Of a stretch of DNA of 40,656 bases, positions 1-40,469 are shown piece after piece. Below the pieces are notes generated by a model. It had not been told where the DNA came from and did no database searches. It worked only from the letters and a program-made list of their open reading frames with translations. How positions within the stretch are numbered: the first letter of the stretch is position 1; each line of letters opens with the position of its first letter. This stretch comes from Przondovirus NAN33P1: the sequence record OZ035777.1; one strand, 5' to 3'. The position numbers and the translations under genes were made by a program.

Positions 1-29
1 ACTGGAAGAAAGCTAATAAGGAGTAACAT

Positions 30-287
30 ATGGACCTGATTAAGTTCCTCGAAATGTTAGACACTGAGATGGCTCAGCAGATGCTCATGGACCTGAAGAA
101 TCCTGAGAAGCGAACCCCTCAGCTGTACAACGCCATTGGTAAACTACTGGAGCGCCATAAGTTCCAAATCTCTAAGCTGACCCCTGACGTTAACATCTTA
201 GGCGGACTGGCTGAGGGTCTGGAGGCTTACAACTCCAAGGTGGGCGCGGATGGTCTGACAGACGACGATACGTTCACCCTACAGTGA
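30..287 (+). CDS. terminase small subunit / DNA maturase A (T7 gene 18 homolog)
   Basis: 85-aa ORF, ATG at 30 preceded by SD TAAGGAG (16-22). Protein MDLIKFLEMLDT...PQLYNAIGKLLERHKFQI...GLTDDDTFTLQ is collinear with T7 gp18 as I recall it. Sits immediately upstream of Rz and the terminase large subunit. Confidence 0.9.
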   Translation: MDLIKFLEMLDTEMAQQMLMDLKNPEKRTPQLYNAIGKLLERHKFQISKLTPDVNILGGLAEGLEAYNSKVGADGLTDDDTFTLQ

Positions 288-290
288 TAT

Positions 291-325
291 ACTCAAGGTA
301 CTACTATATGTGGTGCCTTTATGGA
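291..325 (+). promoter_or_regulatory. RNase III-type processing hairpin (T7 R18.5-like)
   Basis: ACTCA + 10-bp stem (295-304 pairs with 310-319, two G-U pairs) + TTTATGGA. Same ACTCAAGG...GGCCTTTATGA architecture as the T7 R1.1 RNase III site; position between genes 18 and 18.5 matches T7 R18.5. Confidence 0.6.
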
Positions 326-383
326 TGTCATTGCACTACGCTAGGCGTTCCTACGTGAAAACTGAGAAACAACGGGAGGCATT

Positions 384-830
384 ATGCTGGAAATTACAAA
401 GAGAATCGTCCCGTATCTTGTGGTTATCATGGTGTTCGCCTTCGGGTGGCACTTTGGGTCACAATCCACGGACACCAAATGGAAGGAGGTAATACAGAAT
501 GAGTACGTTCAGAAGCAAACAGCTAGAGCTGAGACTCAGAAAGCGATTGACGCAGTATCGGCTAAGTACCAAGCAGACCTTGAAGGGCTGGAAGGCAGCA
601 CTGATAGGATTATTGCTGATTTGCGTAGCGACAATAAGCGGCTGCGCGTCAGAGTCAAACCTACCAGTGTCGCCGCAGGCCCAGACGGTCGATGCCTCGT
701 TGATGGTTCCGTCGAACTACACGAAGCAACTGCTCGAAGTCTTATCGCAATAACCCAGAAGGCCGACCTCAAAGAGAAGGCCCTACAGGACACAATTCGC
801 AAACTTCAAGGGAAAGGAGGTGAACATTGA
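384..830 (+). CDS. Rz-like i-spanin (T7 gene 18.5 homolog)
   Basis: 148 aa, ATG 384 with SD GGGAGG. N-terminal TM helix ([17 protein letters not shown]) then periplasmic coiled-coil region; collinear with T7 gp18.5 (…[10 protein letters not shown]…DRII(A/S)[14 protein letters not shown]…ALQDTIR). Stop TGA 828-830 overlaps the terminase start. Confidence 0.88.
499..753 (+). CDS. Rz1-like o-spanin lipoprotein, embedded in the +1 frame of Rz (T7 gene 18.7 homolog)
   Basis: 84-aa ORF entirely inside the Rz gene in another frame. ATG 499 with SD GGAAGGAGG (481-489). Hydrophobic stretch ending in a lipobox-like ISGC, then a Pro-rich periplasmic tail. Classic embedded Rz/Rz1 arrangement. Confidence 0.7.
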   Translation: MSTFRSKQLELRLRKRLTQYRLSTKQTLKGWKAALIGLLLICVATISGCASESNLPVSPQAQTVDASLMVPSNYTKQLLEVLSQ

Positions 831-2584
831 GTAACTCTCAGCAAGCCAAGAACGCCTTAATCATTGCGCAACTGAAGGGTGACTTTGTCGCCTTTCTCTT
901 CGTGCTATGGAAGGCCCTGAACCTGCCGGAACCAACCAAATGTCAAATCGACATGGCCAAGTGTCTGGCAGACCCAAAGAACAAGAAGTTCATCCTTCAG
1001 GCTTTCCGTGGTATCGGGAAGTCGTTCATCACGTGTGCGTTCGTAGTGTGGACCCTGTGGCGTGACCCTCAGTTAAAGATATTGATTGTCTCAGCCTCAA
1101 AGGAACGTGCGGACGCTAACTCCATCTTCATCAAGAACATCATCGACTTGTTGCCTTTCCTGAGTGAGCTTAAGCCTCGCCCCGGTCAGCGTGACTCCGT
1201 GATTAGCTTCGATGTAGGCCCTGCCAAGCCGGACCACAGCCCGTCAGTTAAGTCTGTGGGTATTACAGGTCAGCTTACTGGTAGCCGTGCCGATATCATC
1301 ATTGCGGATGACGTGGAGATTCCCGGTAACTCTGCAACCCAAGGTGCCCGCGAGAAACTCTGGACGCTGGTTCAGGAGTTCGCCGCACTGTTGAAACCTC
1401 TGCCGACTAGCCGTGTTATCTATCTGGGGACCCCTCAGACCGAGATGACGCTCTACAAGGAACTTGAGGACAACCGTGGGTACTCGACGATTATCTGGCC
1501 TGCACAGTATCCCCGCTCCAAAGAGGAAGACCTGTACTACGGCGACCGTCTGGCTCCGATGCTCCGCATTGAGTACGATGAGGACAAAGAGGGCCTAAGT
1601 AGCCAACCTACCGACCCGGTGCGATTCGACTCCATGGACCTTCAGGAACGTGAGGTGGAATACGGCAAGGCTGGCTATACGCTTCAGTTCATGCTCAACC
1701 CGAACCTCAGTGACGCCGAGAAGTACCCTCTACGCCTCCGTGACGCTATCGTGTGCGGTCTACAGATGGACAAGGCCCCAATGCACTACCAGTGGCTTCC
1801 GAACCGTCAGAACCGCAATGAGGAGCTTCCTAACGTGGGCATGAAGGGTGACGAGATTTACTCCTTCCATACAGCCTCAAGTAACACTGGTGCGTATCAG
1901 GGTAAGATTCTGGTCATTGACCCAAGTGGTCGCGGTAAGGATGAGACTGGCTGGTGCGTTCTATACACCCTCAACGGCTACATCTACTTGATGGACGCTG
2001 GTGGTACTCGTGGTTACGAAGAGAAGTCCCTTGAGTTCCTCGCTAAGAAGGCTAAGCAGTGGCAGGTGCAGACTGTGGTCTTCGAGAGTAACTTCGGTGA
2101 CGGTATGTTCGGTAACGTGTTCCAGCCTGTGCTCCTGAAGCATCACCCAGCGCAACTCGAAGAGATTCGTGCTCGTGGTATGAAAGAGGTCCGTATCTGC
2201 GATACCCTTGAGCCTGTACTGGCAAGTCACCGCTTGGTTATCCGTGATGAGGTAATCCGTCAGGACTACCAGACAGCACGCGATGCAGACGGTAAGCACG
2301 CTCTGAAGTACAGCCTGTTCTACCAGATGACCCGTATGAGCCGTGAGAAGGGCGCTGTGGCACATGACGACCGACTTGATGCGTTAGCATTGGGTGTCGA
2401 GTTCCTACGCTCTACGATGCAGCAAGACGCTGTGAAGATAGAGGCTGAGGTACTTCAGGAGTTCTTGGAGTACCACATGGAGAAACCTCTGAGTAACATC
2501 TCCCAGTTCCGGGCCACAAGCAGTAACGGTGTGGACATCCGGTGGGAAGACGATGGGGATGACTCTATGTTCATCTCATGGTGA
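827..2584 (+). CDS. terminase large subunit / DNA maturase B (T7 gene 19 homolog)
   Basis: 585 aa, near-collinear with T7 gp19 (…[17 protein letters not shown]…[15 protein letters not shown]…[14 protein letters not shown]…[16 protein letters not shown]…). Start is TTG at 827 (the frame is closed by TGA at 821-823) with SD AAGGAGG at 814-820. Confidence 0.95.
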
Positions 2585-2664
2585 TTATGCAGTGATTGTG
2601 CATAAGGATTCATTAGGCCAAGGAAGGCCACTTTTGGAAAACTCTAAGCATAACAGACACTTGG

Positions 2665-4375: not shown

Positions 4376-4575
4376 TGAGTAAGCTACTAGCGATATCCAA
4401 AATAACAGGGCAATACACTGTAACACTACGGGAGTACCCGCACGGTAAAATGGGGAGTACCTACACTGTGCGATACGGTAAGCAGGTAAAACACTGGGAC
4501 AACGTGGTACTAGCTCAGGAGGATTATCAATCGTGCGTAGTACATCAATCAACTTGCGCTGGGTGGAATTACTGA
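4375..4575 (+). CDS. hypothetical early protein (66 aa)
   Basis: ATG 4375 overlaps the SAMase stop (TAATG), SD GGAGG 4362-4366. MSKLLAISKITGQYTVTLREYPHGK... No homolog recognised. Confidence 0.5.
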   Translation: MSKLLAISKITGQYTVTLREYPHGKMGSTYTVRYGKQVKHWDNVVLAQEDYQSCVVHQSTCAGWNY

Positions 4576-4757
4576 TGAAACACTACGGAATCACACAGCA
4601 GGATCTCAAGATCACTCGCAAGGCCATGAAGGTGGCCCTGATGTATGTCAACCAGTCACCTGAAGACATGAACGCATGGCACGGCTACTATATGGCCCAG
4701 CTGGCAGCAATTTATCATACTCGTAAGGTAATGTATGATAACCCTGTTCGTAATTAG
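4575..4757 (+). CDS. hypothetical early protein (60 aa)
   Basis: ATG 4575 overlaps the upstream stop (TGATG), translationally coupled. MKHYGITQQDLKITRKAMKVALMYVNQSPEDMNAWHGYYM... Confidence 0.5.
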   Translation: MKHYGITQQDLKITRKAMKVALMYVNQSPEDMNAWHGYYMAQLAAIYHTRKVMYDNPVRN

Positions 4758-4932
4758 TGTGTACGCCCTGATTGTCCTGTACTTTGTGCGGGACTTTCGC
4801 AAGGGTCTTAATGTACACAAAGCATCATTCAGTTACCTGAAGTGGGGCGTGCTGCCTCGCTTTACTGTAAGACTACCTAATGGCCGCTTTAAGGCAAACA
4901 AAGTGGGGATATTCTATGTCGCAACGCACTAA
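4735..4932 (+). CDS. hypothetical early membrane protein (65 aa)
   Basis: ATG 4735 overlaps the previous gene; N-terminal hydrophobic helix (ITLFVISVYALIVLYFV) then a basic tail. Confidence 0.5.
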   Translation: MITLFVISVYALIVLYFVRDFRKGLNVHKASFSYLKWGVLPRFTVRLPNGRFKANKVGIFYVATH

Positions 4933-5149
4933 CCTGAAGAAAGCATTCAAGATTGCACGGATGGTTATGACCTACGGTGCATCCGAACGCGCCACAAAGA
5001 AAGCATACATCAGGCACCACATACGACTACCAGCAAGACAGCAGCGATGGGTAATACGTAGCGTGCACATTCAACTACACGAGCCATTCATGGTCCCTAA
5101 GGACCTCGTTCCATCAGCAACTGGTTTTGCAAAGCGCCAAGAGTTTTAG
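4916..5149 (+). CDS. hypothetical basic early protein (77 aa)
   Basis: ATG 4916 (GGGGA 6 nt upstream); an alternative in-frame ATG exists at 4880. Lys/Arg-rich: MSQRTNLKKAFKIARMVMTYGASERATKKAYIRHHIRLPARQQRW... Confidence 0.45.
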   Translation: MSQRTNLKKAFKIARMVMTYGASERATKKAYIRHHIRLPARQQRWVIRSVHIQLHEPFMVPKDLVPSATGFAKRQEF

Positions 5150-5192
5150 CACTCGTTAACACCACACACTACTATTTAAAGGAAACAACTAA

Positions 5193-6212
5193 ATGAACTA
5201 CACCGACATGCAAGAACGCTTAGACGTCATCCGTAACCTACCAATCTGTGAACTCGACAAGCGCCAACCGCTATTGGTTGCACTCATCGCGGACATTGTG
5301 AACTACGAGACGTCTGACGGTGACGATACAGCTAGCAGCTGTGGTCTGGAAAGTCAGTACTACTGGCAAACACTGAAGATTAAGGCCAAAGACGCCGGGT
5401 TTAACCTGCTGGGTAATGGTCACTTCAGCGCAGCGTTTAAGCACGAGCTACTACCGGGTAGGGTCATCAAGGTTGGCTTTAAGAAAGAAGACTCTGGGGC
5501 CGCTTACGTAGCATTCTGCCGGATGCATCAAGGTCGTGACGGTATTCCTAACGTCTATCACGTAGCGCGTCACGCTGGGTGCTACACGGTGGTACTAGAT
5601 GAGTTGTTACCGTGTCAACGCTACGAGGATGATGACCACGACCATTATGCAGACTTAGCGTTTCAATTCGTTGAGTGCACAGGCTACGACCATGAGGATT
5701 ACCGCAAGGATGACCAGCCGTTCATCGAAACGTGCCAGATGATTCGCAAGTTCTTCTACGGGATTGCGTCCTTTGATATGCATAGTGGTAACATCATGTT
5801 CACCAAAGACGGCAAGCCAGTGATTACCGACCCGGTGTCATTCTCGCATGACCGCGAACGTGAGTCGTTCTCACTGGAACCTGAGGAACTGCTCGCAGAG
5901 ATTGAGCAGATAGCGCACGATAAGATGATTGAACGCTGCAAGCGCAACAAGGCTAAGCGTGACCCGAACGGGGAGCTGCGCATCGCACGCCGTAAGGCCA
6001 ATAAGGAACGTCGGGCTGCCAACAAGGCACACGCTAGGTGGCGCAAGGAGCGCGAACGTGAACGTGAGCAGTATCACGTAGAAGCCTTAAAGGCAGACAT
6101 AGCGAGCATTGAAGCGCGCGTTCCGGTGTGGTGCAGGGGACCGGGCCTAGCGATACAAATGGGCAAGCCACTACCAATCGACAACTACCTTCAGGCTAGA
6201 CTTATGGGTTAA
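5193..6212 (+). CDS. serine/threonine protein kinase, host shutoff (T7 gene 0.7 homolog)
   Basis: 339 aa; LPICELDKRQ...AGFNLLGNGHFSAAF...RVIKVGFKKEDSGAAY(V/T)AFCRM.QGR.GIPNVY.V.RHAGCYTVVLD...IRKFF.GIASFDMHSGNIMF...ITDPVSFS is collinear with T7 gp0.7, followed by a basic Arg/Lys-rich C-terminal region. Confidence 0.92.
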   Translation: MNYTDMQERLDVIRNLPICELDKRQPLLVALIADIVNYETSDGDDTASSCGLESQYYWQTLKIKAKDAGFNLLGNGHFSAAFKHELLPGRVIKVGFKKEDSGAAYVAFCRMHQGRDGIPNVYHVARHAGCYTVVLDELLPCQRYEDDDHDHYADLAFQFVECTGYDHEDYRKDDQPFIETCQMIRKFFYGIASFDMHSGNIMFTKDGKPVITDPVSFSHDRERESFSLEPEELLAEIEQIAHDKMIERCKRNKAKRDPNGELRIARRKANKERRAANKAHARWRKEREREREQYHVEALKADIASIEARVPVWCRGPGLAIQMGKPLPIDNYLQARLMG

Positions 6213-6281
6213 CGAGGTGTATCTTAGGTGTCTCCACTGCGAGGCACCAATAGATAAACTTTATTCACAAAGAGGCACACA

Positions 6282-9002
6282 ATGAACGCATTAAACATTG
6301 CACGTAATGACTTCTCAGAGATTGAACTGGCCGCTATTCCGTACAACATCCTCAGCGAGCACTACGGGGACAAACTGGCACGTGAGCAGTTAGCACTCGA
6401 ACATGAAGCGTACGAGCTGGGCGAGCAGCGTTTCCTGAAGATGCTGGAACGTCAGGTTAAAGCTGGTGAGTTCGCTGACAACGTGGCCGCTAAGCCGCTG
6501 GTCTTAACGTTGCACCCACAGTTAACCAAGCGTATTGACGACTGGAAGGAGGAGCAAGCAAACGCTCGCGGTAAGAAGCCTCGCGCATACTATCCGATTA
6601 AGCACGGTGTGGCCTCAGAGTTAGCCATTAGCATGGGCGCTGAGGTGCTCAACGAGAAGCGCGGAGTGTCCAGTGAGGCAATCGCACTGCTAACCATTAA
6701 GGTAGTCTTAGGGACGCTCACAGACGCCTCAAAGGCCACCATCCAGCAGGTATCCTCTCAGTTAGGTAAGGCCCTTGAGGATGAGGCCCGCTTCGGTCGT
6801 ATTCGTGAGCAGGAAGCCACCTACTTCAAGAAGAACGTAGCGGACCAGCTGGACAAGCGCGTAGGCCACGTGTACAAGAAGGCTTTCATGCAGGTTGTCG
6901 AGGCCGATATGATTTCCAAAGGGATGCTGGGTGGTGACAACTGGGCGAGCTGGAAGACCGACGAGCAGATGCACGTGGGGACCAAGCTGCTAGAGTTACT
7001 CATTGAGGGCACTGGTCTGGTGGAAATGACCAAGAACAAGATGGCCGATGGCTCCGACGATGTGACCAGTATGCAGATGGTCCAGCTGGCTCCGGCCTTT
7101 GTGGAACTCCTGAGCAAACGAGCAGGCGCACTCGCAGGTATCAGCCCGATGTACCAGCCGTGCGTAGTCCCTCCGAAACCTTGGGTTGGAACTGTGGGTG
7201 GAGGCTACTGGTCAGTCGGTCGTCGCCCGCTGGCACTGGTGCGTACCCACTCCAAGAAGGCACTGCGCCGCTATGAAGACGTGCACATGCCTGAGGTGTA
7301 CAAAGCAGTCAATCTCGCGCAAAACACGCCGTGGAAGGTGAACAAGAAGGTGCTGGCGGTAGTCAACGAGATTGTCAACTGGAAGCACTGCCCGGTGGGT
7401 GACGTCCCGGCGATTGAGCGCGAAGAATTACCACCACGCCCGGACGATATCGATACCAACGAGGTGGCACGCAAGGCTTGGCGCAAGGAGGCCGCAGCGG
7501 TCTACCGTAAGGACAAGGCACGACAGTCTCGCCGTTTGTCAATGGAGTTCATGGTTGCACAGGCCAACAAATTCGCTAACCATAAGGCCATCTGGTTCCC
7601 ATACAACATGGACTGGCGTGGACGTGTGTACGCTGTTAGCATGTTCAACCCGCAGGGTAACGACATGACTAAGGGTATGCTGACACTGGCCAAGGGCAAA
7701 CCGATTGGTCTCGATGGGTTCTACTGGCTGAAGATTCACGGTGCAAACTGTGCAGGCGTCGATAAGGTTCCTTTCCCTGAGCGCATCAAGTTCATCGAAG
7801 AGAACGAGGGCAACATTCTGGCGAGCGCAGCCGACCCACTGAATAACACTTGGTGGACCCAGCAGGATTCGCCGTTCTGTTTCCTAGCGTTCTGCTTTGA
7901 GTATGCAGGCGTTAAACATCACGGCCTGAATTACAACTGCTCGCTGCCGCTGGCGTTCGATGGGTCATGCTCTGGGATTCAGCACTTCAGCGCAATGCTC
8001 CGCGATTCCATCGGTGGCCGTGCGGTAAACCTGCTGCCATCTGATACCGTGCAGGATATCTACAAGATTGTGGCCGATAAGGTCAACGAGGTGCTCCACC
8101 AGCACGTTGTCAACGGGTCTCAGACGGTGGTCGAGCAGATTGCAGACAAGAAGACTGGGGAGTTCCGCGAGAAGGTAACACTGGGTGAGTCCGTGCTGGC
8201 TGCTCAGTGGTTGCAATATGGTGTTACCCGTAAGGTGACTAAGCGTTCGGTCATGACGCTGGCGTACGGTTCCAAAGAGTTTGGCTTCCGCCAGCAAGTT
8301 CTTGAGGACACCATTCAGCCAGCTATTGATAACGGCGAGGGCTTGATGTTTACGCACCCTAACCAAGCGGCTGGCTATATGGCTAAGCTGATTTGGGACG
8401 CTGTTACCGTGACCGTAGTGGCCGCTGTCGAGGCTATGAACTGGCTGAAGTCTGCTGCTAAACTGCTGGCCGCTGAAGTCAAGGACAAGAAGACCAAAGC
8501 GGTGCTCCGTAAGCGCTGCGCAATCCACTGGGTAACACCAGACGGCTTCCCGGTGTGGCAGGAATATCACAAGCGCGACCAAGCGCGCCTGAAGCTGACG
8601 TTTCTAGGTCAGGCCAACGTGTTCATGACGTACAACAAAGGGGAAGCCAAAGAGATTGACGCACATAAGCAGGAGTCAGGAATCGCTCCTAACTTTGTGC
8701 ACTCACAGGATGGTAGTCACCTGCGCATGACCGTAGTGCACGCCAACGAGGTCTACGGGATTGACTCCTTCGCGCTCATTCACGACTCCTTCGGGACCAT
8801 TCCGGCAGATGCTGGGAATCTATTTAAGGCAGTCCGTGAGACGATGGTAAAGACCTACGAGGATAACGATGTGATTGCAGACTTCTATGACCAGTTCGCT
8901 GACCAGCTGCACGAGTCTCAGCTCGATAAGATGCCTGAGGTACCAGCCAAAGGGGACCTGAATCTGCGCGATATCTTAGAGTCTGACTTTGCGTTCGCGT
9001 GA
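6282..9002 (+). CDS. single-subunit DNA-directed RNA polymerase (T7 gene 1 homolog)
   Basis: 906 aa (the size I recall for K11 RNAP; T7 is 883). Collinear with T7 RNAP throughout, including the C-terminus ...IHDSFGTIPADA.NLFKAVRETMV.TYE..DV.ADFYDQFADQLHESQLDKMP..PAKG.LNLRDILESDFAFA. Confidence 0.98.
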   Translation: MNALNIARNDFSEIELAAIPYNILSEHYGDKLAREQLALEHEAYELGEQRFLKMLERQVKAGEFADNVAAKPLVLTLHPQLTKRIDDWKEEQANARGKKPRAYYPIKHGVASELAISMGAEVLNEKRGVSSEAIALLTIKVVLGTLTDASKATIQQVSSQLGKALEDEARFGRIREQEATYFKKNVADQLDKRVGHVYKKAFMQVVEADMISKGMLGGDNWASWKTDEQMHVGTKLLELLIEGTGLVEMTKNKMADGSDDVTSMQMVQLAPAFVELLSKRAGALAGISPMYQPCVVPPKPWVGTVGGGYWSVGRRPLALVRTHSKKALRRYEDVHMPEVYKAVNLAQNTPWKVNKKVLAVVNEIVNWKHCPVGDVPAIEREELPPRPDDIDTNEVARKAWRKEAAAVYRKDKARQSRRLSMEFMVAQANKFANHKAIWFPYNMDWRGRVYAVSMFNPQGNDMTKGMLTLAKGKPIGLDGFYWLKIHGANCAGVDKVPFPERIKFIEENEGNILASAADPLNNTWWTQQDSPFCFLAFCFEYAGVKHHGLNYNCSLPLAFDGSCSGIQHFSAMLRDSIGGRAVNLLPSDTVQDIYKIVADKVNEVLHQHVVNGSQTVVEQIADKKTGEFREKVTLGESVLAAQWLQYGVTRKVTKRSVMTLAYGSKEFGFRQQVLEDTIQPAIDNGEGLMFTHPNQAAGYMAKLIWDAVTVTVVAAVEAMNWLKSAAKLLAAEVKDKKTKAVLRKRCAIHWVTPDGFPVWQEYHKRDQARLKLTFLGQANVFMTYNKGEAKEIDAHKQESGIAPNFVHSQDGSHLRMTVVHANEVYGIDSFALIHDSFGTIPADAGNLFKAVRETMVKTYEDNDVIADFYDQFADQLHESQLDKMPEVPAKGDLNLRDILESDFAFA

Positions 9003-9012
9003 GGTCTCCGGT

Positions 9013-9035
9013 AATTAGGTAGCACTATAGGGACC
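9013..9035 (+). promoter_or_regulatory. phage RNAP promoter (immediately after gene 1)
   Basis: AATTAGGTAGCACTATAGGGACC; -17 to +4 match consensus; +1 G at 9030. Drives the 9093-9656 gene. Confidence 0.75.
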
Positions 9036-9092
9036 TGCTCTCTGGGTCCATATACTTAAAGACAACTTAAAGTAAACTTAAAGAGGCACGCT

Positions 9093-9656
9093 ATGACTTA
9101 CTCAATCGTTGTAACCATCTTGTTAATCGTTGTAACCATCCTGTTCATCCGGTCTGTACTGCACGCAAACGACCTACAGAGCACTCTTAGCTCAAAGATG
9201 GAAATGCACAAACAGGCCATAGAGTCAGCTGTCACCAAGGTACGTCGGGCAGAAGAGGACAGAGAATCATACTCCCGAAGGTTACAGCACATTGAGGACC
9301 TACTGTATGCTGAGAAAGACAGGGTGACGACTCTAAGTGGGCACATCACAACCCAGCGTGACCGAATGAAGCATCTCCGTAAGAACAACGATGAGTTACT
9401 GAACGAGCTGATGCTGGTCTCCGACCTGATTCACGTTAAGTTCACCGCTGTGTTGCCTGACGGTACCCACTCTAAGACGCTCTTTAAGTTAGGACTTGGG
9501 CCGTGTGGTCTGCACGTTAAGTCCCTCCGCTGGACCGAGCTTGAAGACCGCTATCTGATAGACCAGCTGTGCACCAATGGCGAGCGTAAGCAGTTCGTCT
9601 ACTACAAGAGCGAAGTAGTAGGACGCATCGAGTTCCGCCACGGTAAGTCTGAATAA
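9093..9656 (+). CDS. hypothetical membrane-anchored coiled-coil protein (no T7 counterpart recognised)
   Basis: 187 aa, ATG 9093 with SD AAGAGG (9081-9086). N-terminal TM helix encoded by a 2x21-nt tandem repeat (9104-9145, IVVTILL/IVVTILF), a heptad-rich charged central region, and a C-terminal domain with Cys residues. Lies between RNAP and gene 1.1. Confidence 0.7.
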   Translation: MTYSIVVTILLIVVTILFIRSVLHANDLQSTLSSKMEMHKQAIESAVTKVRRAEEDRESYSRRLQHIEDLLYAEKDRVTTLSGHITTQRDRMKHLRKNNDELLNELMLVSDLIHVKFTAVLPDGTHSKTLFKLGLGPCGLHVKSLRWTELEDRYLIDQLCTNGERKQFVYYKSEVVGRIEFRHGKSE

Positions 9657-9674
9657 GGTAGCACTATAGGAACA
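9652..9674 (+). promoter_or_regulatory. degenerate phage RNAP promoter (phi-1.1-like)
   Basis: AATAAGGTAGCACTATAGGAACA; core GGTAGCACTATAGG intact, three mismatches at -14, +3 and +5. Overlaps the stop codon of the upstream gene and directly precedes an R1.1-like hairpin, as phi-1.1A does in T7. Confidence 0.5.
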
Positions 9675-9675
9675 T

Positions 9676-9707
9676 ACTCAAGGTCATCATCTGGTGGCCT
9701 TTATGAA
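9676..9707 (+). promoter_or_regulatory. RNase III processing hairpin (T7 R1.1-like)
   Basis: ACTCAAGGTCATCATCTGGTGGCCTTTATGAATG; near-identical ends to the T7 R1.1 site (ACUCAAGGUCAU...GUGGCCUUUAUGAUUG as recalled). Stem 9680-9689 pairs with 9692-9701. Confidence 0.7.
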
Positions 9708-9737
9708 TGTCCCTAACAACCACTCAGGAGCAACACT

Positions 9738-9914
9738 ATGTACCAGAACACAATCAACTTCGAGCGTACCCGCGAACGTCAGCAGACCGAGGGTTATATT
9801 CCTAAGGGCCGCAAGCTGAACAAGACGAAACGAGGTGGTGGCGTGAAGGGTTCCTTCCGTAACGCGAAGGGTGACAGCGTTGTTAACCAAGAGAAATACT
9901 TTGTAGGAGCATAA
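9738..9914 (+). CDS. gene 1.1-like small basic protein
   Basis: 58-aa ORF not in the track: MYQNTINFERTRERQQTEGYIPKGRKLNKTKRGGGVKGSFRNAKGDSVVNQEKYFVGA. SD AGGAG 9726-9730. Shares the KGRKLNKTKR motif of T7 gp1.1 as recalled. Confidence 0.6.
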   Translation: MYQNTINFERTRERQQTEGYIPKGRKLNKTKRGGGVKGSFRNAKGDSVVNQEKYFVGA

Positions 9915-9917
9915 CAA

Positions 9918-10175
9918 ATGGCTAAGCAAACTAAATGGCTGTTCGATGGAAGCACTTCGCAGTGGTCTCGTTTAGGAGCAGCGGAGCGCAGACTGATGGA
10001 TACGACAGGACTACACGTGGTCATGCTTGACGACCCGTTCACTAACACCGTGGTATTCAACGTGTTTGAGCCACGCGGGTCGCTTCTAATAAGCAAGCGG
10101 TTCAGCCGCTGGTCAATTGACTCAGCGTCAGACTGGCTGGCAAAACTCATGGTAGACTACTCAAGTTGGAAATGA
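9918..10175 (+). CDS. gene 1.2-like protein (candidate host dGTPase inhibitor)
   Basis: 85 aa, the same length and position as T7 gp1.2; SD AGGAG 9905-9909. Sequence similarity to T7 gp1.2 was not established by eye; assignment is by synteny and size. Confidence 0.5.
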   Translation: MAKQTKWLFDGSTSQWSRLGAAERRLMDTTGLHVVMLDDPFTNTVVFNVFEPRGSLLISKRFSRWSIDSASDWLAKLMVDYSSWK

Positions 10176-10280: not shown

Positions 10281-11342
10281 ATGATGAACATTAAGACTAA
10301 TCCATTTAAGGCCGTATCGTTCGTTCGCTCTGCTATCGAGAAGGCGTTGGAGACTTCCGGTTACCTCATCGCAGACACTAAGCACGATGGTGTGCGCGGG
10401 AACATCTGCGTAGACAACACGGCCAACACAGCGTGGCTCAGTCGGGTCTCCAAGACCATTCCGGCCCTTGAGCATCTCAACGGTTTCGACCAGCGCTGGC
10501 AGAAGTTACTGAAAGATGACCGCTGGATTTTCCCGGACGGCTTTATGCTTGATGGTGAACTAATGGTCAAAGGCGTGGACTTTAACACCGGGTCTGGCCT
10601 ACTGCGCACCAAGTGGCTGAAAGCTAAGAACTATGAGTTCTCAACATACGCCATTGAGAAAGAGTGGGATAACCCTAAGGGTAAAGTACCATTCCACCTC
10701 AATAGTGCCGACCTCAAAGTTGTTCTGTACGATATCATTCCGCTTGACATTATCGAGTCCGGCGATGACTACGAAGTGATGACACTGCTGCGCCTTGAGC
10801 ACGTCAAGGTAGCCTTACCAGTCCTGCAAGACCACTTCCCTGAAGTTGAGTGGTGCCTCTCGGAGTCCCATGAAGTTTACGACATGGACGAACTCGATGC
10901 GCTGTACCGACAGAAACGTGAAGAAGGTCATGAAGGTCTAGTGGTTAAGGACCCTCGCGGTATCTATAAGCGCGGTAAGAAGTCCGGCTGGTGGAAACTG
11001 AAGCCAGAGAATGAGGCTGACGGCGTCGTTGTGGGACTCAACTGGGGAACTCCCGGTCTTGCCAACGAGGGAAAGGTGATTGGCTTCGAGGTTCTCCTTG
11101 AGTCTGGTCGAGTGGTATCCGCCAACAACATCTCTCAGGCACTTATGGAAGAATTCACCAAGCGCGTTAAAGAGTACACCACTGAGTGTAACGCCAACGA
11201 AGCTGGGTGTTGGTACATGAATCCTTACGAGGGCTGGGCTTGTCAAATCAAGTACATGGAGGAAACTCCAGACGGCTCCCTGCGTCACCCGTCGTTCGAC
11301 AAATGGCGCGGAACAGAGGAAGACCCTACCGTTAAGATGTAA
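10281..11342 (+). CDS. ATP-dependent DNA ligase (T7 gene 1.3 homolog)
   Basis: 353 aa from ATG 10281 (MMNIKTNPFKAVSFV..., SD GGAGA 10269-10273). Collinear with T7 ligase, including the adenylation-site lysine context (IADTKHDGVRG) and ...EGHEGLVVKDP...YKRGKKSGWWK(L/M)KPE. The track start at 10248 lacks an SD. Confidence 0.95.
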   Translation: MMNIKTNPFKAVSFVRSAIEKALETSGYLIADTKHDGVRGNICVDNTANTAWLSRVSKTIPALEHLNGFDQRWQKLLKDDRWIFPDGFMLDGELMVKGVDFNTGSGLLRTKWLKAKNYEFSTYAIEKEWDNPKGKVPFHLNSADLKVVLYDIIPLDIIESGDDYEVMTLLRLEHVKVALPVLQDHFPEVEWCLSESHEVYDMDELDALYRQKREEGHEGLVVKDPRGIYKRGKKSGWWKLKPENEADGVVVGLNWGTPGLANEGKVIGFEVLLESGRVVSANNISQALMEEFTKRVKEYTTECNANEAGCWYMNPYEGWACQIKYMEETPDGSLRHPSFDKWRGTEEDPTVKM

Positions 11343-36297: not shown

Positions 36298-36337
36298 CCG
36301 CTTGGTTTCCCTTCTCATTCACTTTAAGGAGGTCATA

Positions 36338-38869
36338 ATGGACCAAGACATTAAAACAGTCATTCAGTACCCAGTGGGAGAGACTGAGTACGACATCCCG
36401 TTCGACTACCTATCCCGTCGCTTCGTCAGAGTGTCTCTGGTCTCTGAGGATTCCCGAAGACTGCTGAGTAACATCACGGAGTACCGCTACGTCTCCAAGA
36501 CCAGAATCAAACTACTGGTTTCTACTGAAGGTTTCGACCGTGTTGAGATTCGTCGGTTTACCTCAGCCTCTGAGCGAATTGTTGACTTCAATGATGGCTC
36601 TGTGCTGCGAGCAACAGACCTTAACGTATCACAGCTACAGTCGGCGCATATTGCGGAAGAAGCCCGTGATGCAGCCCTGCTGGCCATGCCTCAGGACGAC
36701 GCAGGTAACCTCGATGCACGCAGTCGCCGTATCGTTAACTTAGCTCCCGGTATTGACGGCACTGACGCTATCAATAAGGACCAGTTAGATTCAACGCTGG
36801 GTGAGGCTGGTGGTATCCTTTCTGATATGAAAGAAGTACAGAAGGAAACCTATGACTATATCGAGAAGCTCGGTGATGACACTTCAATTGTCCGTGGGGT
36901 AACTTGGGTGTACAACCAAGGGTCTGCCGTTGGTGGCGAGACTACTGTACTCATCGATAAACCTACCCGCACGCTGGCCGTTCCTTATATTGAGATTAAT
37001 GGTAGCCGCCAAGAGGTTGGGTATCACTTCTCGTTTGATATTGCCACCCAGATGATTACCTTAACGGAACCACTGGTTACCGGGGACTTCCTGATGGCAA
37101 TGACCACAGAGTCTAGTGTACCTCTGGAAGACCTTCTGGCTAACCCGACTGGTGCCTCGGCTATCGGTACCTCCGATGGTCGAAACGTTCAGGCAAACAT
37201 CGACGAGCTTCGCTCAGAGTTAGACTTCCTGAAAGACACTACGGTGCTCGACGTTCGCCGTTTTGGTGCTGTGGGTGATGGCATTGCAGATGATTACCCG
37301 GCGTTTCAGAAAGCGTGTATCGCTGCGAGCCAACTTGGCGGGGCAATAGTCCACGTACCGACCCCAAAGGTAAAATGGAAGATTGGATTCCCGGTATACT
37401 TGTTCGACCGAACTTGGGTCCGGGGTACAGGCATCAACTGTATTGTAGAGTTCACTGACCCGCTGTATGCGCGCAAGTCCCGCTCTGGGTTCGTCATTGG
37501 GTCTGGTTACGAACAGAACCGCGACAAGGCCATCCAGTGTCTTAACGATGGCACTTGGGCCACTACTGGCTCGGTGGTAAATAGGGACTTCGTTGAATTG
37601 GGCCGAGGGCAGTACGTACGCGACAACCCTAGCAAGGTCCAGTCGAGACTGTGCCGAGTGTCCGGGATGTACCTGAAAGCTTCGTACCAGAACGGTGCTA
37701 CCCTGAAGGGCGGCTACGCTGTGTCTGGTGCCAACGCGGTAGACTCAGAGGTATTTGACATTTGGGGTGAAGGTTGGACTGAGATTATCAACTTCGGGTC
37801 TGACGTACCGCCAGCTACGCCAAGTTGTCACAACCTCCATGCGTACGACATAACGTGTGTTGCTCCTAACGACTACGAGACGTACTACAGCGCAGGGTTC
37901 ATTGCGAACTCTACAAGCTGCTCTATTGGCCGATTCAAGCAGCTCAGGGCAATAGCTGATGGTTCTCCTCACGGTTCTTGTGGTTCCATGAACTACACCG
38001 AGTATTGCTCCTTCTACGATATCGACGTACCGAGCTTAGGTCGTACAGCCTCGTCTGAGGGTATCCTTGTGAACAACTCCAAGGGCGCTGTGACTCGTAA
38101 CGTTCGTATTGGTAACGCTAAGACCGGGGTGGCCGAGTATTACACCACTGGTGCTGGTATCTTCTACGACAGAGACCAACCCAACGTGTTCGATAGTATC
38201 CATGCGAATAACTGTGACAACGCGGTAGCTCTCCGCTCCAAGTTCTCGGTTTGGAAGAACGTGACGCAGACCAACTGTACCTATCACGTCTACTTCGGGA
38301 CGACCAACGCACAAGCCTGTGTGGTCAAGTTCGTACCGGACACAATCGGTGGTGGTAATAACGTAGACATTCTGGACAGGCTCCGCGATAACGTTGTGAC
38401 TGGCTGGCGTGTGCGCTCGCTCCACATCCGCCCCATCGCCTACCTACTGAACGACAAGTCAGTGTTGCGTAGCTGGGATGCTGGTAAGAACATCAAGGCT
38501 GAGAACGGTGTGGGATTCCAGTGGTTATTCCCTGTACCATCTACCATGCGTGCAATCACTCAGGTCAGCCAATGGTTTACTTTCGAGGTGGGTGCAGCGA
38601 CGGCAGGGACAGAGGTCAAGGTTCAGGTTCGCCGTATGTCAGCGTACAACGGAGACGCCAACGAGCAGCCTGTAATCCTCTTTGAGAACAGCCGAAAGGC
38701 CTCTCTGGATACCGTACAGGCTACTAACATTGTGGCCAACTCCCCGGGTCTGGTCCTGACGTCCCCTACGGATGGACTGGCTAACGCTGTGGATGTCCTC
38801 GTGAGTGTTACGGCACCGACCGTTAACTTCAACATGAAAGAAGCTCGCATCACGTATCTGGGCGACTAA
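36338..38869 (+). CDS. tail fiber / tailspike protein with T7 gp17-like N-terminal anchor and C-terminal beta-helix (depolymerase-type) domain
   Basis: 843 aa from ATG 36338 (SD AAGGAGG 36326-36332). Residues 1-150 are collinear with the T7 gp17 N-terminal adaptor (...IKTV..Y.....E.D.IPF.YL.R.FV.V.L...D.R.L...T.YR.....RI.L......F...E.RR.TS...R.VDF.DGS.LRA.DLNV.Q.Q..H.AEEARD...). The rest is unrelated to T7 and carries a pectate-lyase-like motif [35 protein letters not shown]. Confidence 0.9.
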
Positions 38870-38882
38870 CTAAGGAGACAGT

Positions 38883-40469
38883 ATGTTAAACAAATTGAAT
38901 CAACCTAAAGGCTCTACAATCGGTGTGCTCAAGGATGGGCGCACCGTCCAAGAGGCAATCGACGAGCTGGAGAAGATTAAGACCCGCAACGTTGACCCTG
39001 AGCGCTTCCGTGAGACACTGACGTCAAGTGACGATGAGGTATTCGAGAAGCTGTTCGCGTGGTTGGCTACTCAGTCAGACGTTGTGGGAACCTCAAGTTC
39101 TTCCTATATCACAGCCTTACCTCGCATGATTGAGCTTAGCGGTCGTACCTATACGTTGACTAAGCGTCACGTGCTGGACGGTAACTTTGGTATACAGAAC
39201 GGTACCATCCTGATGTCCGGTGAGGGTGAGATTATCATGGGCCTCGATGCTGGTACCAAGACTCGTCGTCACTTCCTTAAGTATGTACATTTCGAATACA
39301 TCGGGTCGGCTGACCGGGATACCTCACTGGTTACTATGGCCCGCTGTTTTAACTCAGTGGTGCTGTTCTGTAACTTCATCGCTGGTGGGGATACTGCCCG
39401 CAACCGGGCACCGCGTACCCGTTACGGCCTGTTCGCAGGGTCCACCAGATGCTGGGGCTTCCAGTTAATCGGTGGTGAGTATTACGGTGGCGACTGTGCG
39501 TTGCGTGTTGGACGCGCTAACGACCACACTGGGTTGACCATTCGTCCCGGTACCGTTCACCACTCACGTGTTATCAACATGCTGCTGTGTAACCCTGCTG
39601 GTGCAGAGGTGTCTGGTTGTAACATTGAGCACGCAGATAACGGTGCGATTGGCTTAGGGATTACATCAGGTACCAACACCTCCGGTAACGCAGCCCACGG
39701 TGTTCGCATCAACGGTGTGTACTTCTATAACAATGGTAATGGTTCCAGTGGGTCAAACGTTGCTCCAGCGAACATCCTCATAGGGAAGGACATTCCGGGG
39801 ACTGAGGGCTGGGACCGACCGGGTGAGCTGATTACGTCAAGTCGAAACACTGCGCACAGCATTACGGTGTCAGAGTGTTACATCGTTAGCCCAAACACCC
39901 AGAACGCTTGGCAGGTTAACGCCCTGTACGGTGTATCCTTCTTGGACAACAAAGTGGGCCTCAAAGGTGACGCTACGATTCACGGTGTGTACGACGGTAC
40001 ATGTGCTAACTGCTGGGCTGTAGGTAACCGAGACCAAGGCGGCAAGGTGTTCCAGTTCTCCTCTACGGCAACCAACACGATTCTGACTACCAGAAAGGGT
40101 AAGTGGACTCCGAAGATTATCGGTGAGGGCACAGCAGGTAACACGACGCTGAGTGCTTCTGGTGGTGCGTACTCTCTGGATAACGGAATGGTCACCGTGT
40201 CGTGCTTCGCAGTGGTTGACACTAAGGACCCAAACATGGCTGGCAACCTGAACATCAAACTACCGGTAGCCTGTGAGGACCAGCAGCGGGGCGGTACAGG
40301 CATATCGTTGACGAACGTCCCAGACGTGCCGAGCCCGAATGGTAGCATCATTGTGATAGGAGACACCGCTCGAATCATGCTGGGGTCTGCGCGATTACAG
40401 CCAGCGAACGTCACGACTGGTACCGCCATCCACTTCTCGGTGTCCTACCCAGCAGACGTTAAGGTATAA
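38883..40469 (+). CDS. second receptor-binding protein / tailspike (beta-helix, depolymerase-type) lacking a gp17 anchor domain
   Basis: 528 aa, ATG 38883 with SD TAAGGAGA (38871-38878), 13 nt after the first fiber gene. No gp17-like N-terminus; Gly/Asn/Thr-rich repetitive beta-helix-like segments (NGAIGLGITSGTNTSGNAAHGVRINGVYFYNNGNGSSGSN). Sits between gene 17 and holin gene 17.5, where T7 has no gene. Confidence 0.85.
   Translation: MLNKLNQPKGSTIGVLKDGRTVQEAIDELEKIKTRNVDPERFRETLTSSDDEVFEKLFAWLATQSDVVGTSSSSYITALPRMIELSGRTYTLTKRHVLDGNFGIQNGTILMSGEGEIIMGLDAGTKTRRHFLKYVHFEYIGSADRDTSLVTMARCFNSVVLFCNFIAGGDTARNRAPRTRYGLFAGSTRCWGFQLIGGEYYGGDCALRVGRANDHTGLTIRPGTVHHSRVINMLLCNPAGAEVSGCNIEHADNGAIGLGITSGTNTSGNAAHGVRINGVYFYNNGNGSSGSNVAPANILIGKDIPGTEGWDRPGELITSSRNTAHSITVSECYIVSPNTQNAWQVNALYGVSFLDNKVGLKGDATIHGVYDGTCANCWAVGNRDQGGKVFQFSSTATNTILTTRKGKWTPKIIGEGTAGNTTLSASGGAYSLDNGMVTVSCFAVVDTKDPNMAGNLNIKLPVACEDQQRGGTGISLTNVPDVPSPNGSIIVIGDTARIMLGSARLQPANVTTGTAIHFSVSYPADVKV

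What the first reader, a model, noticed from the sequence alone, without database searches (positions are those of the whole stretch)
9013..9707. Extra gene between RNA polymerase and gene 1.1: membrane-anchored coiled-coil protein with its own promoter
T7 goes from gene 1 straight to the 1.1/1.2 region; here a 187-aa ORF (9093..9656) is inserted. It has a dedicated consensus promoter (9013-9035), and is followed by a degenerate promoter and an R1.1-type RNase III hairpin, so it forms its own processed transcription unit. The protein has an N-terminal TM helix built from a 2x21-nt tandem duplication (9104-9145, IVVTILL/IVVTILF), a long charged heptad-rich segment, and a C-terminal domain with Cys residues. 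I recognise no T7 homolog. Expression right after RNAP suggests a host-takeover, superinfection-exclusion or anti-defence role.
Basis: partly seen in the sequence, partly recalled or inferred. Interest (0 to 1): 0.7.

Follow-up and report, generated by a model that had tools for sequence, protein, structure and literature searches.

The report
T3-type gene 1.05, membrane-anchored form
The "extra" gene after the phage RNA polymerase is the already catalogued gene 1.05 of T3/K11/KP32-type phages, sitting in its usual place with its usual promoters and RNA-processing site. Its function is still unknown, so the finding is ordinary apart from some new detail on how the protein is built and how it varies.

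Summary
ORF 9093..9656 (187 aa) is preceded by a near-consensus phage promoter (9012-9034). A weaker promoter (9651-9673) and an R1.1-type RNase III hairpin (9668-9714) follow it. It is not a novel insertion. The window is a Klebsiella przondovirus. The ORF is its ortholog of T3 gene 1.05: Pfam PF25755 at 1.8e-26, PHROG 6440 at 2.4e-85, and KP32 gp05 is annotated "fusion protein, other name gp1.05". It was found in 503 phage records. T3, T7M and phiSG-JL2 GenBank records annotate the same layout: phi1.05, primary origin, 1.05, phi1.1, R1.1, 1.1, 1.2. The protein is an N-terminal membrane anchor (predicted N-out/C-in), a roughly 88-residue heptad coiled coil, and a conserved helix plus six-stranded small beta-barrel. 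The barrel is under strong purifying selection (dN/dS about 0.05-0.1), so the gene is translated. The coiled coil is a diversity hotspot that keeps only its heptad pattern. The TM and coil are optional across the family: T3 has the barrel alone. No function is published and no solved structure is related. My best guess, which is inferred, is a non-essential early accessory factor that binds a conserved cytoplasmic partner and holds it at the membrane. Interest is low.

The parts
9012..9034 (+). phage-RNAP promoter phi1.05 (transcription start inferred at G9030)
   Evidence: One of 12 matches to the 23-mer in the window, 0 expected by chance. Conserved in 46 przondovirus loci. Same position as the annotated phi1.05 of T3, T7M, phiSG-JL2 and Kvp1.
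9031..9049 (+). 5' stem-loop of the phi1.05 transcript (GGACCU...GGGUCC)
   Evidence: Fold. Other przondoviruses carry a different sequence here (GGGAACCTTCG...CGAGGGTTCC) that is also self-complementary. T3 has GGGAGAC...GTCTCCC.
9054..9086 (+). AT-rich leader with three ACTTAAAG repeats; the last contains the Shine-Dalgarno AAGAGG (9081-9086). Positional and sequence homolog of the stretch annotated as primary origin of DNA replication in T3/T7M
   Evidence: TRF: period 11, 2.8 copies. Invariant repeats in 46 loci. Alignment with the T3, phiSG-JL2, Kvp1 and T7 leaders. rep_origin annotations. Origin function here is inferred, not shown.
9093..9656 (+). gene 1.05 CDS, 187 aa (ortholog of KP32 gp05 'fusion protein / gp1.05')
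   Evidence: Best protein match is PMBT12 at 94%.
9093..9155 (+). residues 1-21: N-terminal transmembrane anchor, predicted N-out/C-in
   Evidence: Kyte-Doolittle 19-residue windows reach 2.9, only at the N-terminus. In 32 of 32 TM-bearing homologues there is no K/R before the TM and 1-4 K/R in the 12 residues after it.
9104..9149 (+). 21-nt tandem repeat (2.2 copies) inside the TM codons
   Evidence: TRF score 78, 92% matches. Restricted to the KP32-like allele class. Both copies change together in KP32 (GTC/GTC) versus the window (GTT/GTT).
9156..9353 (+). residues 22-87: hypervariable coiled-coil stalk
   Evidence: Nucleotide diversity 0.17-0.42 against a background of 0.04-0.10. dS 1.09 and dN/dS 0.40. 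Heptad kept in all alleles: a/d positions 70% hydrophobic versus 18% elsewhere, and no Pro. Helix in the AF2 model.
9354..9422 (+). residues 88-110: conserved basic helix (QRDRMKHLRK...ELxxVSDL) leading into the barrel
   Evidence: Invariant columns in the 28-sequence alignment. pLDDT above 90 up to residue 100, then a dip to 66 at the 101-110 junction.
9426..9641 (+). residues 112-183: 1.05 domain, a six-stranded small beta-barrel with the motif FKLGLGxCG
9651..9673 (+). weaker phage promoter phi1.1, overlapping the stop codon of 1.05
   Evidence: Three mismatches to phi1.05. Same overlap with the 3' end of 1.05 as the annotated phi1.1 of T3, T7M, phiSG-JL2, Kvp1 and PP81.
9668..9714 (+). R1.1-type RNase III processing hairpin (lower stem, internal loop, 9-bp upper stem)
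   Evidence: Fold at -17 kcal/mol; z-score only -1.4, so not remarkable on energy alone. Sequence homology to the annotated R1.1 of T3/T7M/phiSG-JL2 and to the T7 sequence after phi1.1A. Five pairs with compensatory changes.
9738..9914 (+). context: gene 1.1 homolog (58 aa)
   Evidence: ORF list. Annotated as a hypothetical protein in KpV767/KP32 at the same position.
9918..10175 (+). context: gene 1.2 (dGTPase inhibitor) homolog; contains a second diversity hotspot
   Evidence: Annotation of the orthologous ORF in KpV767/KP32. Diversity 0.2-0.33 at 9933-10112.

Best explanation
This is the przondovirus (K11/KP32-type) version of bacteriophage T3 gene 1.05, in its standard expression cassette. 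Phage RNA polymerase starts at phi1.05 (+1 about 9030). The transcript carries a 5' hairpin and an AT-rich ACTTAAAG-repeat leader, which in T3 coincides with the annotated primary replication origin, and then the 187-codon gene. A weaker promoter, phi1.1, overlaps the stop codon, and RNase III cuts read-through RNA at the R1.1 hairpin before genes 1.1/1.2.

The protein is a single-pass inner-membrane protein with a two-to-four-residue N-terminus outside and everything else in the cytoplasm. It has an unbroken heptad coiled-coil stalk of about 88 residues (roughly 13 nm). At the stalk's tip is a nearly invariant basic helix plus a six-stranded small beta-barrel, the '1.05 domain'.

The most likely mode of action is inferred, not shown. 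The barrel is the working part and binds a conserved cytoplasmic partner. The coiled coil oligomerises it. In this lineage the anchor holds the complex at the membrane, which would sequester or relocalise the partner. That makes it a dispensable early/middle accessory (host-interaction) factor of the kind that fills the gene 0.3-2 region of T7-like phages.

My probabilities: identity and architecture about 0.95; cytoplasmic orientation about 0.8; 'binds and tethers a conserved partner' about 0.4; partner unknown.
For: Identity. Pfam PF25755 over residues 112-182, E 1.8e-26. PHROG 6440 full length, E 2.4e-85. KP32 gp05 is annotated 'fusion protein, other name gp1.05'. 503 phage records by tblastn, 303 of them near full length.

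Cassette. The layout matches the features annotated in T3, T7M and phiSG-JL2. The leader and R1.1 align with T3 and T7. R1.1 shows compensatory pairs.

Translated and functional. dN/dS is 0.053 in the Pfam part with pS 0.29, over 46 genes. The SD sequence is conserved in all loci.

Architecture. The AF2 model has pLDDT 90, with a helix over 2-107 and six strands over 112-183. The heptad is preserved in all alleles.

Topology. No K/R before the TM and 1-4 after it in 32 of 32 homologues. T3, Ninurta and kayfunavirus homologues have the barrel with no TM or signal peptide, so the barrel must work in the cytoplasm.

Accessory status. The gene is absent from T7 and reduced to the barrel alone in T3. 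Among the 150 best 50%-identity representatives, 46 are TM plus long stalk, 13 TM plus short linker, 17 long without a clear TM, and 74 barrel only.

Diversity. The hotspot is confined to the stalk, as also seen in the neighbouring host-interaction gene 1.2.
Against: No partner, phenotype or localisation has been measured. No paper in the library reports a function.

The barrel is not notably charged (median core pI 7.9), which says nothing about what it binds.

The membrane anchor is optional in the family, so tethering cannot be the core activity.

The hypervariable stalk could simply be unconstrained spacer (dN/dS 0.4-0.7, never above 1).
Confidence: 0.5

Rival explanations
1. A phi29 p16.7-like organiser. 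The TM, coiled coil and C-terminal binding domain would tether replicating phage DNA, or origin-proximal RNA, to the inner membrane. The gene sits on the primary origin, and the barrel would bind ssDNA/RNA.
Confidence: 0.12
2. An arms-race protein: either an anti-defence factor or a protein sensed by a host defence. The hypervariable coiled coil would be the surface under diversifying selection, so its alleles would match different host defence repertoires.
For: Stalk diversity is 4- to 8-fold above the flanks, with deep allele classes (dS about 1.1) and recombination breakpoints inside the gene. Within-class dN/dS is 0.69 in the stalk against 0.18 in the conserved part. A similar hotspot lies in gene 1.2, a known host-interaction and exclusion-target gene. 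The gene is dispensable in some lineages.
Against: dN/dS never exceeds 1. Variation respects only the heptad pattern, as expected for a structurally tolerant spacer. The gene is nearly universal in przondoviruses rather than sporadic: about 300 full-length hits against about 383 records with a przondovirus-level RNAP. There is no hit to defence-system models, though that library does not hold anti-defence proteins.
Confidence: 0.15
3. A superinfection-exclusion or envelope-acting protein, with the coiled coil and barrel in the periplasm (N-in/C-out), blocking DNA entry of competing phages or acting on the envelope.
For: It is an early membrane protein. It superficially resembles Rz-type i-spanins and other bitopic periplasmic coiled-coil proteins. 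There are weak PHROG matches to Rz-like spanins (E 0.1-0.3).
Against: The positive-inside rule points the other way in 32 of 32 homologues. Homologues without any TM or signal peptide must be cytoplasmic. The phage has its own spanin pair 18.5/18.7 at 384-830 and 499-753. The spanin matches are not significant.
Confidence: 0.06
4. The ORF is not a real protein gene, and its conservation reflects DNA-level functions (origin, promoters).
For: It is bracketed by promoters and lies at the origin region. No proteomic evidence was found.
Against: Synonymous divergence accumulates (pS 0.29) while non-synonymous divergence is held at 0.019-0.034 in the C-terminal half. The reading frame is intact in 46 of 46 loci. 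There is a confident, family-wide fold and 262 clusters at 50% identity.
Confidence: 0.02

Closest known systems
Bacteriophage T3 gene 1.05 protein (NP_523302; Pfam PF25755 Phage_T3_1_05) and its cassette phi1.05 / primary origin / 1.05 / phi1.1 / R1.1
   Same: Homologous C-terminal barrel (36% identity to the T7M copy, motif FKLGLGPCG). Same genome position between gene 1 and genes 1.1/1.2. Same two promoters, with phi1.1 overlapping the 3' end. Homologous leader and R1.1 hairpin.
   Different: T3's protein is 90 aa and lacks the membrane anchor and the coiled coil. Promoter specificity differs (T3 AATTAACCCTCACTAAAGGGAGA versus TAATTAGGTAGCACTATAGGGAG here).
Klebsiella phage KP32 gp05 / K11-type 'fusion protein gp1.05' (PHROG 6440)
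   Same: Full-length ortholog with the same 186-187 aa architecture. KP32-type alleles are 86-94% identical (PMBT12 94%). Present in about 300 przondovirus records.
   Different: Only allelic differences. Most przondoviruses carry other stalk alleles that are about 63% identical overall.
phiSG-JL2 gp1.05, Kvp1 1.05, LPST144, Erwinia pEp_SNUABM_03 homologues (Teetrevirus, Berlinvirus and others)
   Same: The same TM, coiled coil and barrel architecture, and the same cassette.
   Different: The stalks are unrelated in sequence, overall identity is 26-32%, and some carry C-terminal tails.
phi29 p16.7 (membrane organiser of phage DNA replication)
   Same: An early phage protein with an N-terminal TM, a coiled coil and a C-terminal binding domain facing the cytoplasm (PMC11476376; architecture from established knowledge).
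   Different: No sequence or fold relation: p16.7C is helical, whereas this domain is a beta-barrel. DNA binding is not shown here, and the anchor is optional in the 1.05 family.
Sm-like / SH3-like small beta-barrels (Hfq, WYL domains of BrxR/PafBC/DriD, SspB, Gemin6/7)
   Same: These are the best structural neighbours of the barrel model: 45-57 residues aligned at 2.2-3.5 A.
T7 phi1.1A / R1.1 / phi1.1B / origin region
   Same: It uses the same building blocks: two class II promoters, the R1.1 hairpin (very similar sequence) and the ACTTTAAG AT-rich leader.
   Different: T7 has no gene between the promoters, and the modules are in a different order (phi1.1A, R1.1, phi1.1B, AT-rich leader, 1.1).

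Membership tests
T3 gene 1.05 protein family (Pfam PF25755) | Match to the family HMM above the curated gathering score | tested here: met
   92.4 bits against a cut-off of 27, E 1.8e-26, residues 112-182 covering profile positions 2-72 of 73. All 23 aligned domain sequences match.
T3 gene 1.05 protein family (Pfam PF25755) | Conserved core residues and motif (F..A, FKLGLGxCG, Q, G, K.F.Y, GR) | tested here: met
   F117, A119, G134, G139, V142, Q158, G163, K166, Y170, G177 and R178 are invariant across 60 sequences from several genera. C138, F131 and F168 are nearly so.
T3 gene 1.05 protein family (Pfam PF25755) | Position in enterobacterial Studiervirinae: between gene 1 (RNAP) and genes 1.1/1.2, flanked by phi1.05 and phi1.1, followed by R1.1 | tested here: met
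   Window layout, compared with the annotated layouts of T3, T7M, phiSG-JL2 and Kvp1.
Przondovirus 'fusion protein' gp1.05 (PHROG 6440; KP32 gp05) | Full-length similarity including the TM and stalk | tested here: met
   PHROG 6440: E 2.4e-85, residues 1-185 on profile 1-185 of 186. 94% identity to PMBT12 and 86% to KP32 isolate 194.
Rz-type i-spanin | Significant similarity to spanin families | tested here: not met
   PHROG 739 and PHROG 89 match only at E 0.11 and 0.32.
Rz-type i-spanin | Located in the late lysis cassette with an embedded or adjacent o-spanin lipoprotein gene | tested here: not met
   The gene lies in the class II region next to the RNAP gene. The phage's real spanin pair is at 384-830 (18.5-like) with an embedded lipobox ORF at 499-753.
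Rz-type i-spanin | N-in/C-out topology with a periplasmic coiled coil | tested here: not met
   Charge distribution predicts N-out/C-in in 32 of 32 TM-bearing homologues. TM-less homologues exist. This is a prediction only.
phi29 p16.7-type membrane replication organiser | N-terminal TM plus coiled coil plus a cytoplasmic C-terminal domain; early expression | tested here: met
   Class II promoter.
phi29 p16.7-type membrane replication organiser | Helical, dimeric DNA-binding C-terminal domain homologous to p16.7C | tested here: not met
phi29 p16.7-type membrane replication organiser | Binds DNA and localises replication to the membrane | not testable with these tools
   Needs EMSA, microscopy and a deletion mutant.
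T7-group RNase III site R1.1 | Two-part stem with an internal loop, homologous to the annotated R1.1 | tested here: met
   18 pairs, 5 of them with compensatory changes across T7, T3 and przondoviruses.
T7-group RNase III site R1.1 | Cleavage by RNase III | not testable with these tools
   Needs in vitro cleavage or 5'-end mapping.
T7-group phage-RNAP promoter | 23-bp conserved sequence repeated through the genome on the coding strand | tested here: met
   12 sites, all on the + strand, 0 expected by chance.

The most novel reading that the evidence does not exclude
The 1.05 domain is a family-wide (Autographiviridae) small beta-barrel that binds a nucleic acid or a core replication/transcription component. 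In the anchored versions, as here, it would physically couple the phage's origin-proximal DNA or RNA to the inner membrane, working like phi29 p16.7 in T7-like phages. The hypervariable stalk would be kept diverse by host recognition. This would give a function to a gene that has sat on the T3-type primary origin unexplained since the T3 genome was annotated.
Probability: 0.1. Interest if true: 0.6.

Novelty: already known. Interest (0 to 1): 0.22.

Why it matters
As a discovery it matters little. The gene, its family, its position and its regulatory signals are already in Pfam, PHROGs and GenBank annotations.

The residual value is descriptive. Gene 1.05 is one of the conserved T7-group early-region genes with no assigned function. 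This analysis gives a concrete architecture: an N-out/C-in anchor, a heptad stalk of about 13 nm, and an invariant helix plus small beta-barrel. It shows the barrel is the selected part and that the stalk is a recombining diversity hotspot. It also shows the anchor is optional.

Together these points define cheap experiments, namely deletion, barrel pull-down and topology reporters. This matters for przondoviruses, which are widely used as Klebsiella therapy candidates.

Tried and rejected

2. afdb50 fold search: the library was not available.

3. PDB sequence searches with profiles of the whole protein and of the domain. They returned only generic coiled coils or noise.

4. NCBIfam and PADLOC: nothing above noise.

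5. Rfam on 8950-9800: only a sub-threshold sRNA hit (17 bits against 40), taken as chance.

6. Sigma-70 promoter and intrinsic terminator scan: no more than in shuffles, so there is no terminator after 1.05.

7. The second whole-database protein search with a mixed alignment returned only przondovirus clusters. A third search without przondovirus members supplied the diversity needed for modelling.

8. Rosetta-stone search for informative domain fusions among the 150 best 50%-identity representatives, out of 262 clusters found. There were none: all proteins are 59-242 aa, and the extras are TM, coiled coil or short tails.

9. Test of 'always downstream of RNAP' in distant relatives. The two ORFs after the RNAP gene in PPpW-4 and the two examined after it in gh-1 are not homologues. 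The PPpW-4 homolog is upstream of the RNAP gene.

10. Literature searches for gp1.05 / gene 1.05 function, and for przondovirus transcriptomics. They found genome-annotation tables only.

11. Spanin reading: rejected.

12. Non-coding reading: rejected.

13. Disulfide or zinc role for 'the Cys residues': only one Cys (C138) is conserved, so this was not pursued.
Full report
**What the window is.** The 40,656-base window is a complete, circularly permuted genome of a Klebsiella T7-like phage of the genus Przondovirus (K11/KP32 group). The 1-kb stretch around the finding is 94% identical to Klebsiella phage KA1-1 and 89-94% identical to KpV767, Emom, Saitama and KP32. The window begins in gene 18. 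It carries the spanin pair 18.5/18.7 at 384-830 and 499-753 and the large terminase at 827-2584. The RNA polymerase gene is at 6282-9002, and the window ends with two tail-fibre genes.

**Checking the observation.**
- The ORF is at 9093..9656 and encodes 187 aa.
It is one of 12 + strand sites matching the 23-mer TAATTAGGTAGCACTATAGGGAC within three mismatches, where shuffles give none. Most of those sites end in GGGAG.
- The second promoter, at 9651-9673, has three mismatches to the first and overlaps the stop codon.
- The hairpin at 9668-9714 has a lower stem, an internal loop and a nine-pair upper stem.
- Tandem Repeats Finder reports the 21-nt repeat at 9104-9149: 2.2 copies, 92% matches.
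- Hydropathy singles out only the N-terminus as a membrane segment.

**What it is.** The C-terminal 71 residues match Pfam PF25755, 'Enterobacteria phage T3 gene 1.05 protein', at 92.4 bits against a cut-off of 27. The whole protein matches PHROG 6440 end to end at E 2.4e-85. KP32 gp05 at the same position is annotated 'fusion protein, other name gp1.05'. tblastn finds relatives in 503 phage records. Of these, 303 cover at least 80% of the protein, and they are mostly Klebsiella przondoviruses. About 383 records carry a przondovirus-level RNAP, so the gene is near-universal in the genus.

The GenBank records of T3, T7M and phiSG-JL2 annotate exactly this cassette: promoter phi1.05; 'primary origin of DNA replication' over the leader and start of the gene; gene 1.05; promoter phi1.1 overlapping its 3' end; RNase III site R1.1; then genes 1.1 and 1.2. 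Kvp1 and PP81 show the same promoter pair, and a paper on Yersinia phage AP5 lists phi1.05 and phi1.1 (PMC4283147). The window's leader aligns with those of T3, phiSG-JL2, Kvp1 and T7, and its hairpin aligns with the annotated R1.1. A consensus fold of nine R1.1 sequences from przondoviruses, T3, phiSG-JL2 and T7 keeps 18 pairs, five with compensatory changes.

T7 itself has no gene here. Its phi1.1A and phi1.1B lie 75 bp apart. It holds the same modules in a different order: phi1.1A, R1.1, phi1.1B, AT-rich leader.

**Is it a real protein?** Yes. All 46 related loci from the viral collection (one further, truncated locus set aside) have an intact frame. Over these genes the Pfam part has pS 0.29 but pN 0.019, giving dN/dS 0.053. 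Residues 88-187 as a whole have dN/dS 0.095. That pattern shows selection on the protein, not on overlapping DNA signals. The Shine-Dalgarno sequence and the three ACTTAAAG repeats are invariant in all loci. The 5' hairpin is kept by structure with two different sequences.

**Architecture.** An AlphaFold model built on a 60-sequence alignment spanning several genera has mean pLDDT 90. It shows one continuous helix over residues 2-107, followed by six strands over 112-183. A domain-only model has pLDDT 88.7 and pTM 0.73. The helix carries an unbroken heptad from residue 22 to 109. Across 28 alleles the a/d positions are 70-74% hydrophobic against 18-19% elsewhere, and there is no proline. This fits a coiled-coil stalk of about 13 nm.

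In all 32 TM-bearing homologues examined there is no Lys or Arg before the membrane segment and one to four in the twelve residues after it. The positive-inside rule therefore predicts N-out/C-in. T3 and T7M (90 aa), Dickeya phage Ninurta (81 aa) and the kayfunaviruses (coiled coil but no TM) carry the barrel with no anchor or signal peptide at all. The barrel must therefore act in the cytoplasm, which agrees with that topology. Among the 150 best representatives of the 262 clusters found at 50% identity, 46 are TM plus long stalk, 13 are TM plus short linker, 17 are long without a clear TM, and 74 are barrel-only. No member is longer than 242 aa, and none carries an informative extra domain.

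**Variation.** Nucleotide diversity across 45 przondovirus loci is 0.04-0.10 in the RNAP gene, the leader and the 3' half of 1.05. It jumps to 0.17-0.42 between 9123 and 9392, which is codons 11-100. In that stalk region dS is saturated (1.09) and dN/dS is 0.40. Within the KP32-like allele class to which the window belongs, the stalk has pS 0.08 and dN/dS 0.69. The conserved 3' part has pS 0.26 and dN/dS 0.18. The gene is therefore a recombinant mosaic, with a breakpoint near codons 88-100. The stalk comes in several ancient allele classes, and the window carries the minority KP32-like class. Variation respects only the heptad. This fits either an unconstrained spacer or a surface under diversifying pressure, and the data do not separate the two. 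The 21-nt repeat is confined to the KP32-like class, does not change the TM length, and shows concerted changes in both copies.

**Mechanism.** The following points are shown: the identity of the gene, its cassette, the purifying selection on the barrel, and the modular and optional N-terminal parts. The rest is inferred. The protein is a bitopic inner-membrane protein whose coiled coil presents an invariant helix-plus-barrel module to the cytoplasm. That module binds a conserved partner. In anchored versions the partner is held at the membrane. Three things make a non-essential host-interaction role the most likely class (about 0.4): the company the gene keeps (anti-restriction, kinase, dGTPase inhibitor and host-RNAP inhibitor genes, from established knowledge of T7), its loss from T7, and its truncation in T3.

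A phi29 p16.7-like role in membrane-associated replication is attractive because of the shared architecture and the origin location. It is weakened by the anchor-less half of the family, by T7 doing without the gene, and by the PPpW-4 homolog lying upstream of the RNAP gene. I put it at about 0.12. An arms-race reading of the stalk gets about 0.15. Periplasmic exclusion or spanin-like roles get about 0.06 or less; the phage has its own spanins, the topology prediction points the other way, and the spanin matches are not significant. A non-coding reading is refuted.

**Literature.** Searches for gp1.05 and gene 1.05 returned only genome-annotation tables. Przondovirus and T3-relative papers say nothing about the gene. 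Some GenBank records call kayfunavirus homologues 'microtubule-binding protein'. This looks like a spurious coiled-coil annotation.

**Verdict.** This is an already catalogued gene of unknown function in its canonical context, so interest is low. The useful residue is the architectural and population-genetic description, together with a short list of decisive experiments.

Noticed in passing
window 9012-9034, 9651-9673 and the other 10 promoter sites; loci L003-L047 around position 1420-1445: Przondovirus promoters come in several specificity flavours at about -12 to -8: GGTAGCACTATA (this window), GGGCACACTATA (K11/KP32) and GGACACAC / GGACCCAC. phi1.05 and phi1.1 of a given phage usually carry the same or a closely related flavour, which suggests co-evolution with the RNAP specificity loop. 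In the non-GGTAGC (K11-type) phages phi1.1 reads CACTATCAGG, with an extra C, and looks more degenerate than here.
   Followed up: partly
window 9933-10112 (gene 1.2) and 10608-10742 (DNA ligase): There are two further sharp nucleotide-diversity islands among przondoviruses: 0.2-0.33 in the dGTPase-inhibitor gene 1.2, and up to 0.53 with indels in the ligase gene. The background is 0.04-0.10.
   Followed up: no
window 9054-9086; L060 183-259 (T3); L059 (T7) after phi1.1B: The leader of gene 1.05 holds three ACTTAAAG repeats that are invariant in 46 przondovirus loci. It is recognisably homologous to the stretch annotated as the primary replication origin in T3/T7M, and to the AT-rich leader after T7 phi1.1B. 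The last repeat doubles as the ribosome-binding site.
   Followed up: partly
L059 (T7 5825-6010) versus window 9012-9740: T7 carries the same modules in a different order (phi1.1A, R1.1 hairpin, phi1.1B, AT-rich leader, 1.1). The window and T3 have phi1.05, leader, 1.05, phi1.1, R1.1, 1.1. T7's arrangement is therefore not a simple deletion of 1.05.
   Followed up: partly
window 9104-9145; same region in KP32 (L004), Emom (L062): The two 21-nt repeat copies change in concert: both are GTC in KP32 and both GTT in the window, and the copies are perfect 21/21 in KP32 and Emom. This suggests repeated conversion or slippage between the copies.
   Followed up: partly
window 1-2600 and 36302-40469: The window is circularly permuted relative to the GenBank przondovirus records that start at the genome's left end, such as KP32. 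It starts in gene 18, with spanins 18.5/18.7 and the terminase at the left end. It ends with two consecutive tail-fibre/depolymerase-type genes (855 and 528 aa).
   Followed up: no
NC_023005.1 (Pseudomonas phage PPpW-4) 4249-4416 versus RNAP CDS 4572-7244: In this Pseudomonas Studiervirinae phage the 1.05-domain homolog lies just upstream of the RNAP gene, not downstream. The domain is therefore an early-region gene, but it is not tied to the origin position everywhere.
   Followed up: partly
proteins P0206, P0237; H149 Enterobacter phage IME278: Some GenBank records name kayfunavirus-type 1.05 homologues 'microtubule-binding protein'. This is almost certainly an artefact of coiled-coil similarity.
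   Followed up: no
window 9071-9161: A sub-threshold Rfam hit to the Rhizobiales sRNA Atu_C9 (17.2 bits against a gathering score of 40, E 0.035) spans the leader and start of 1.05. I regard it as chance.
   Followed up: no
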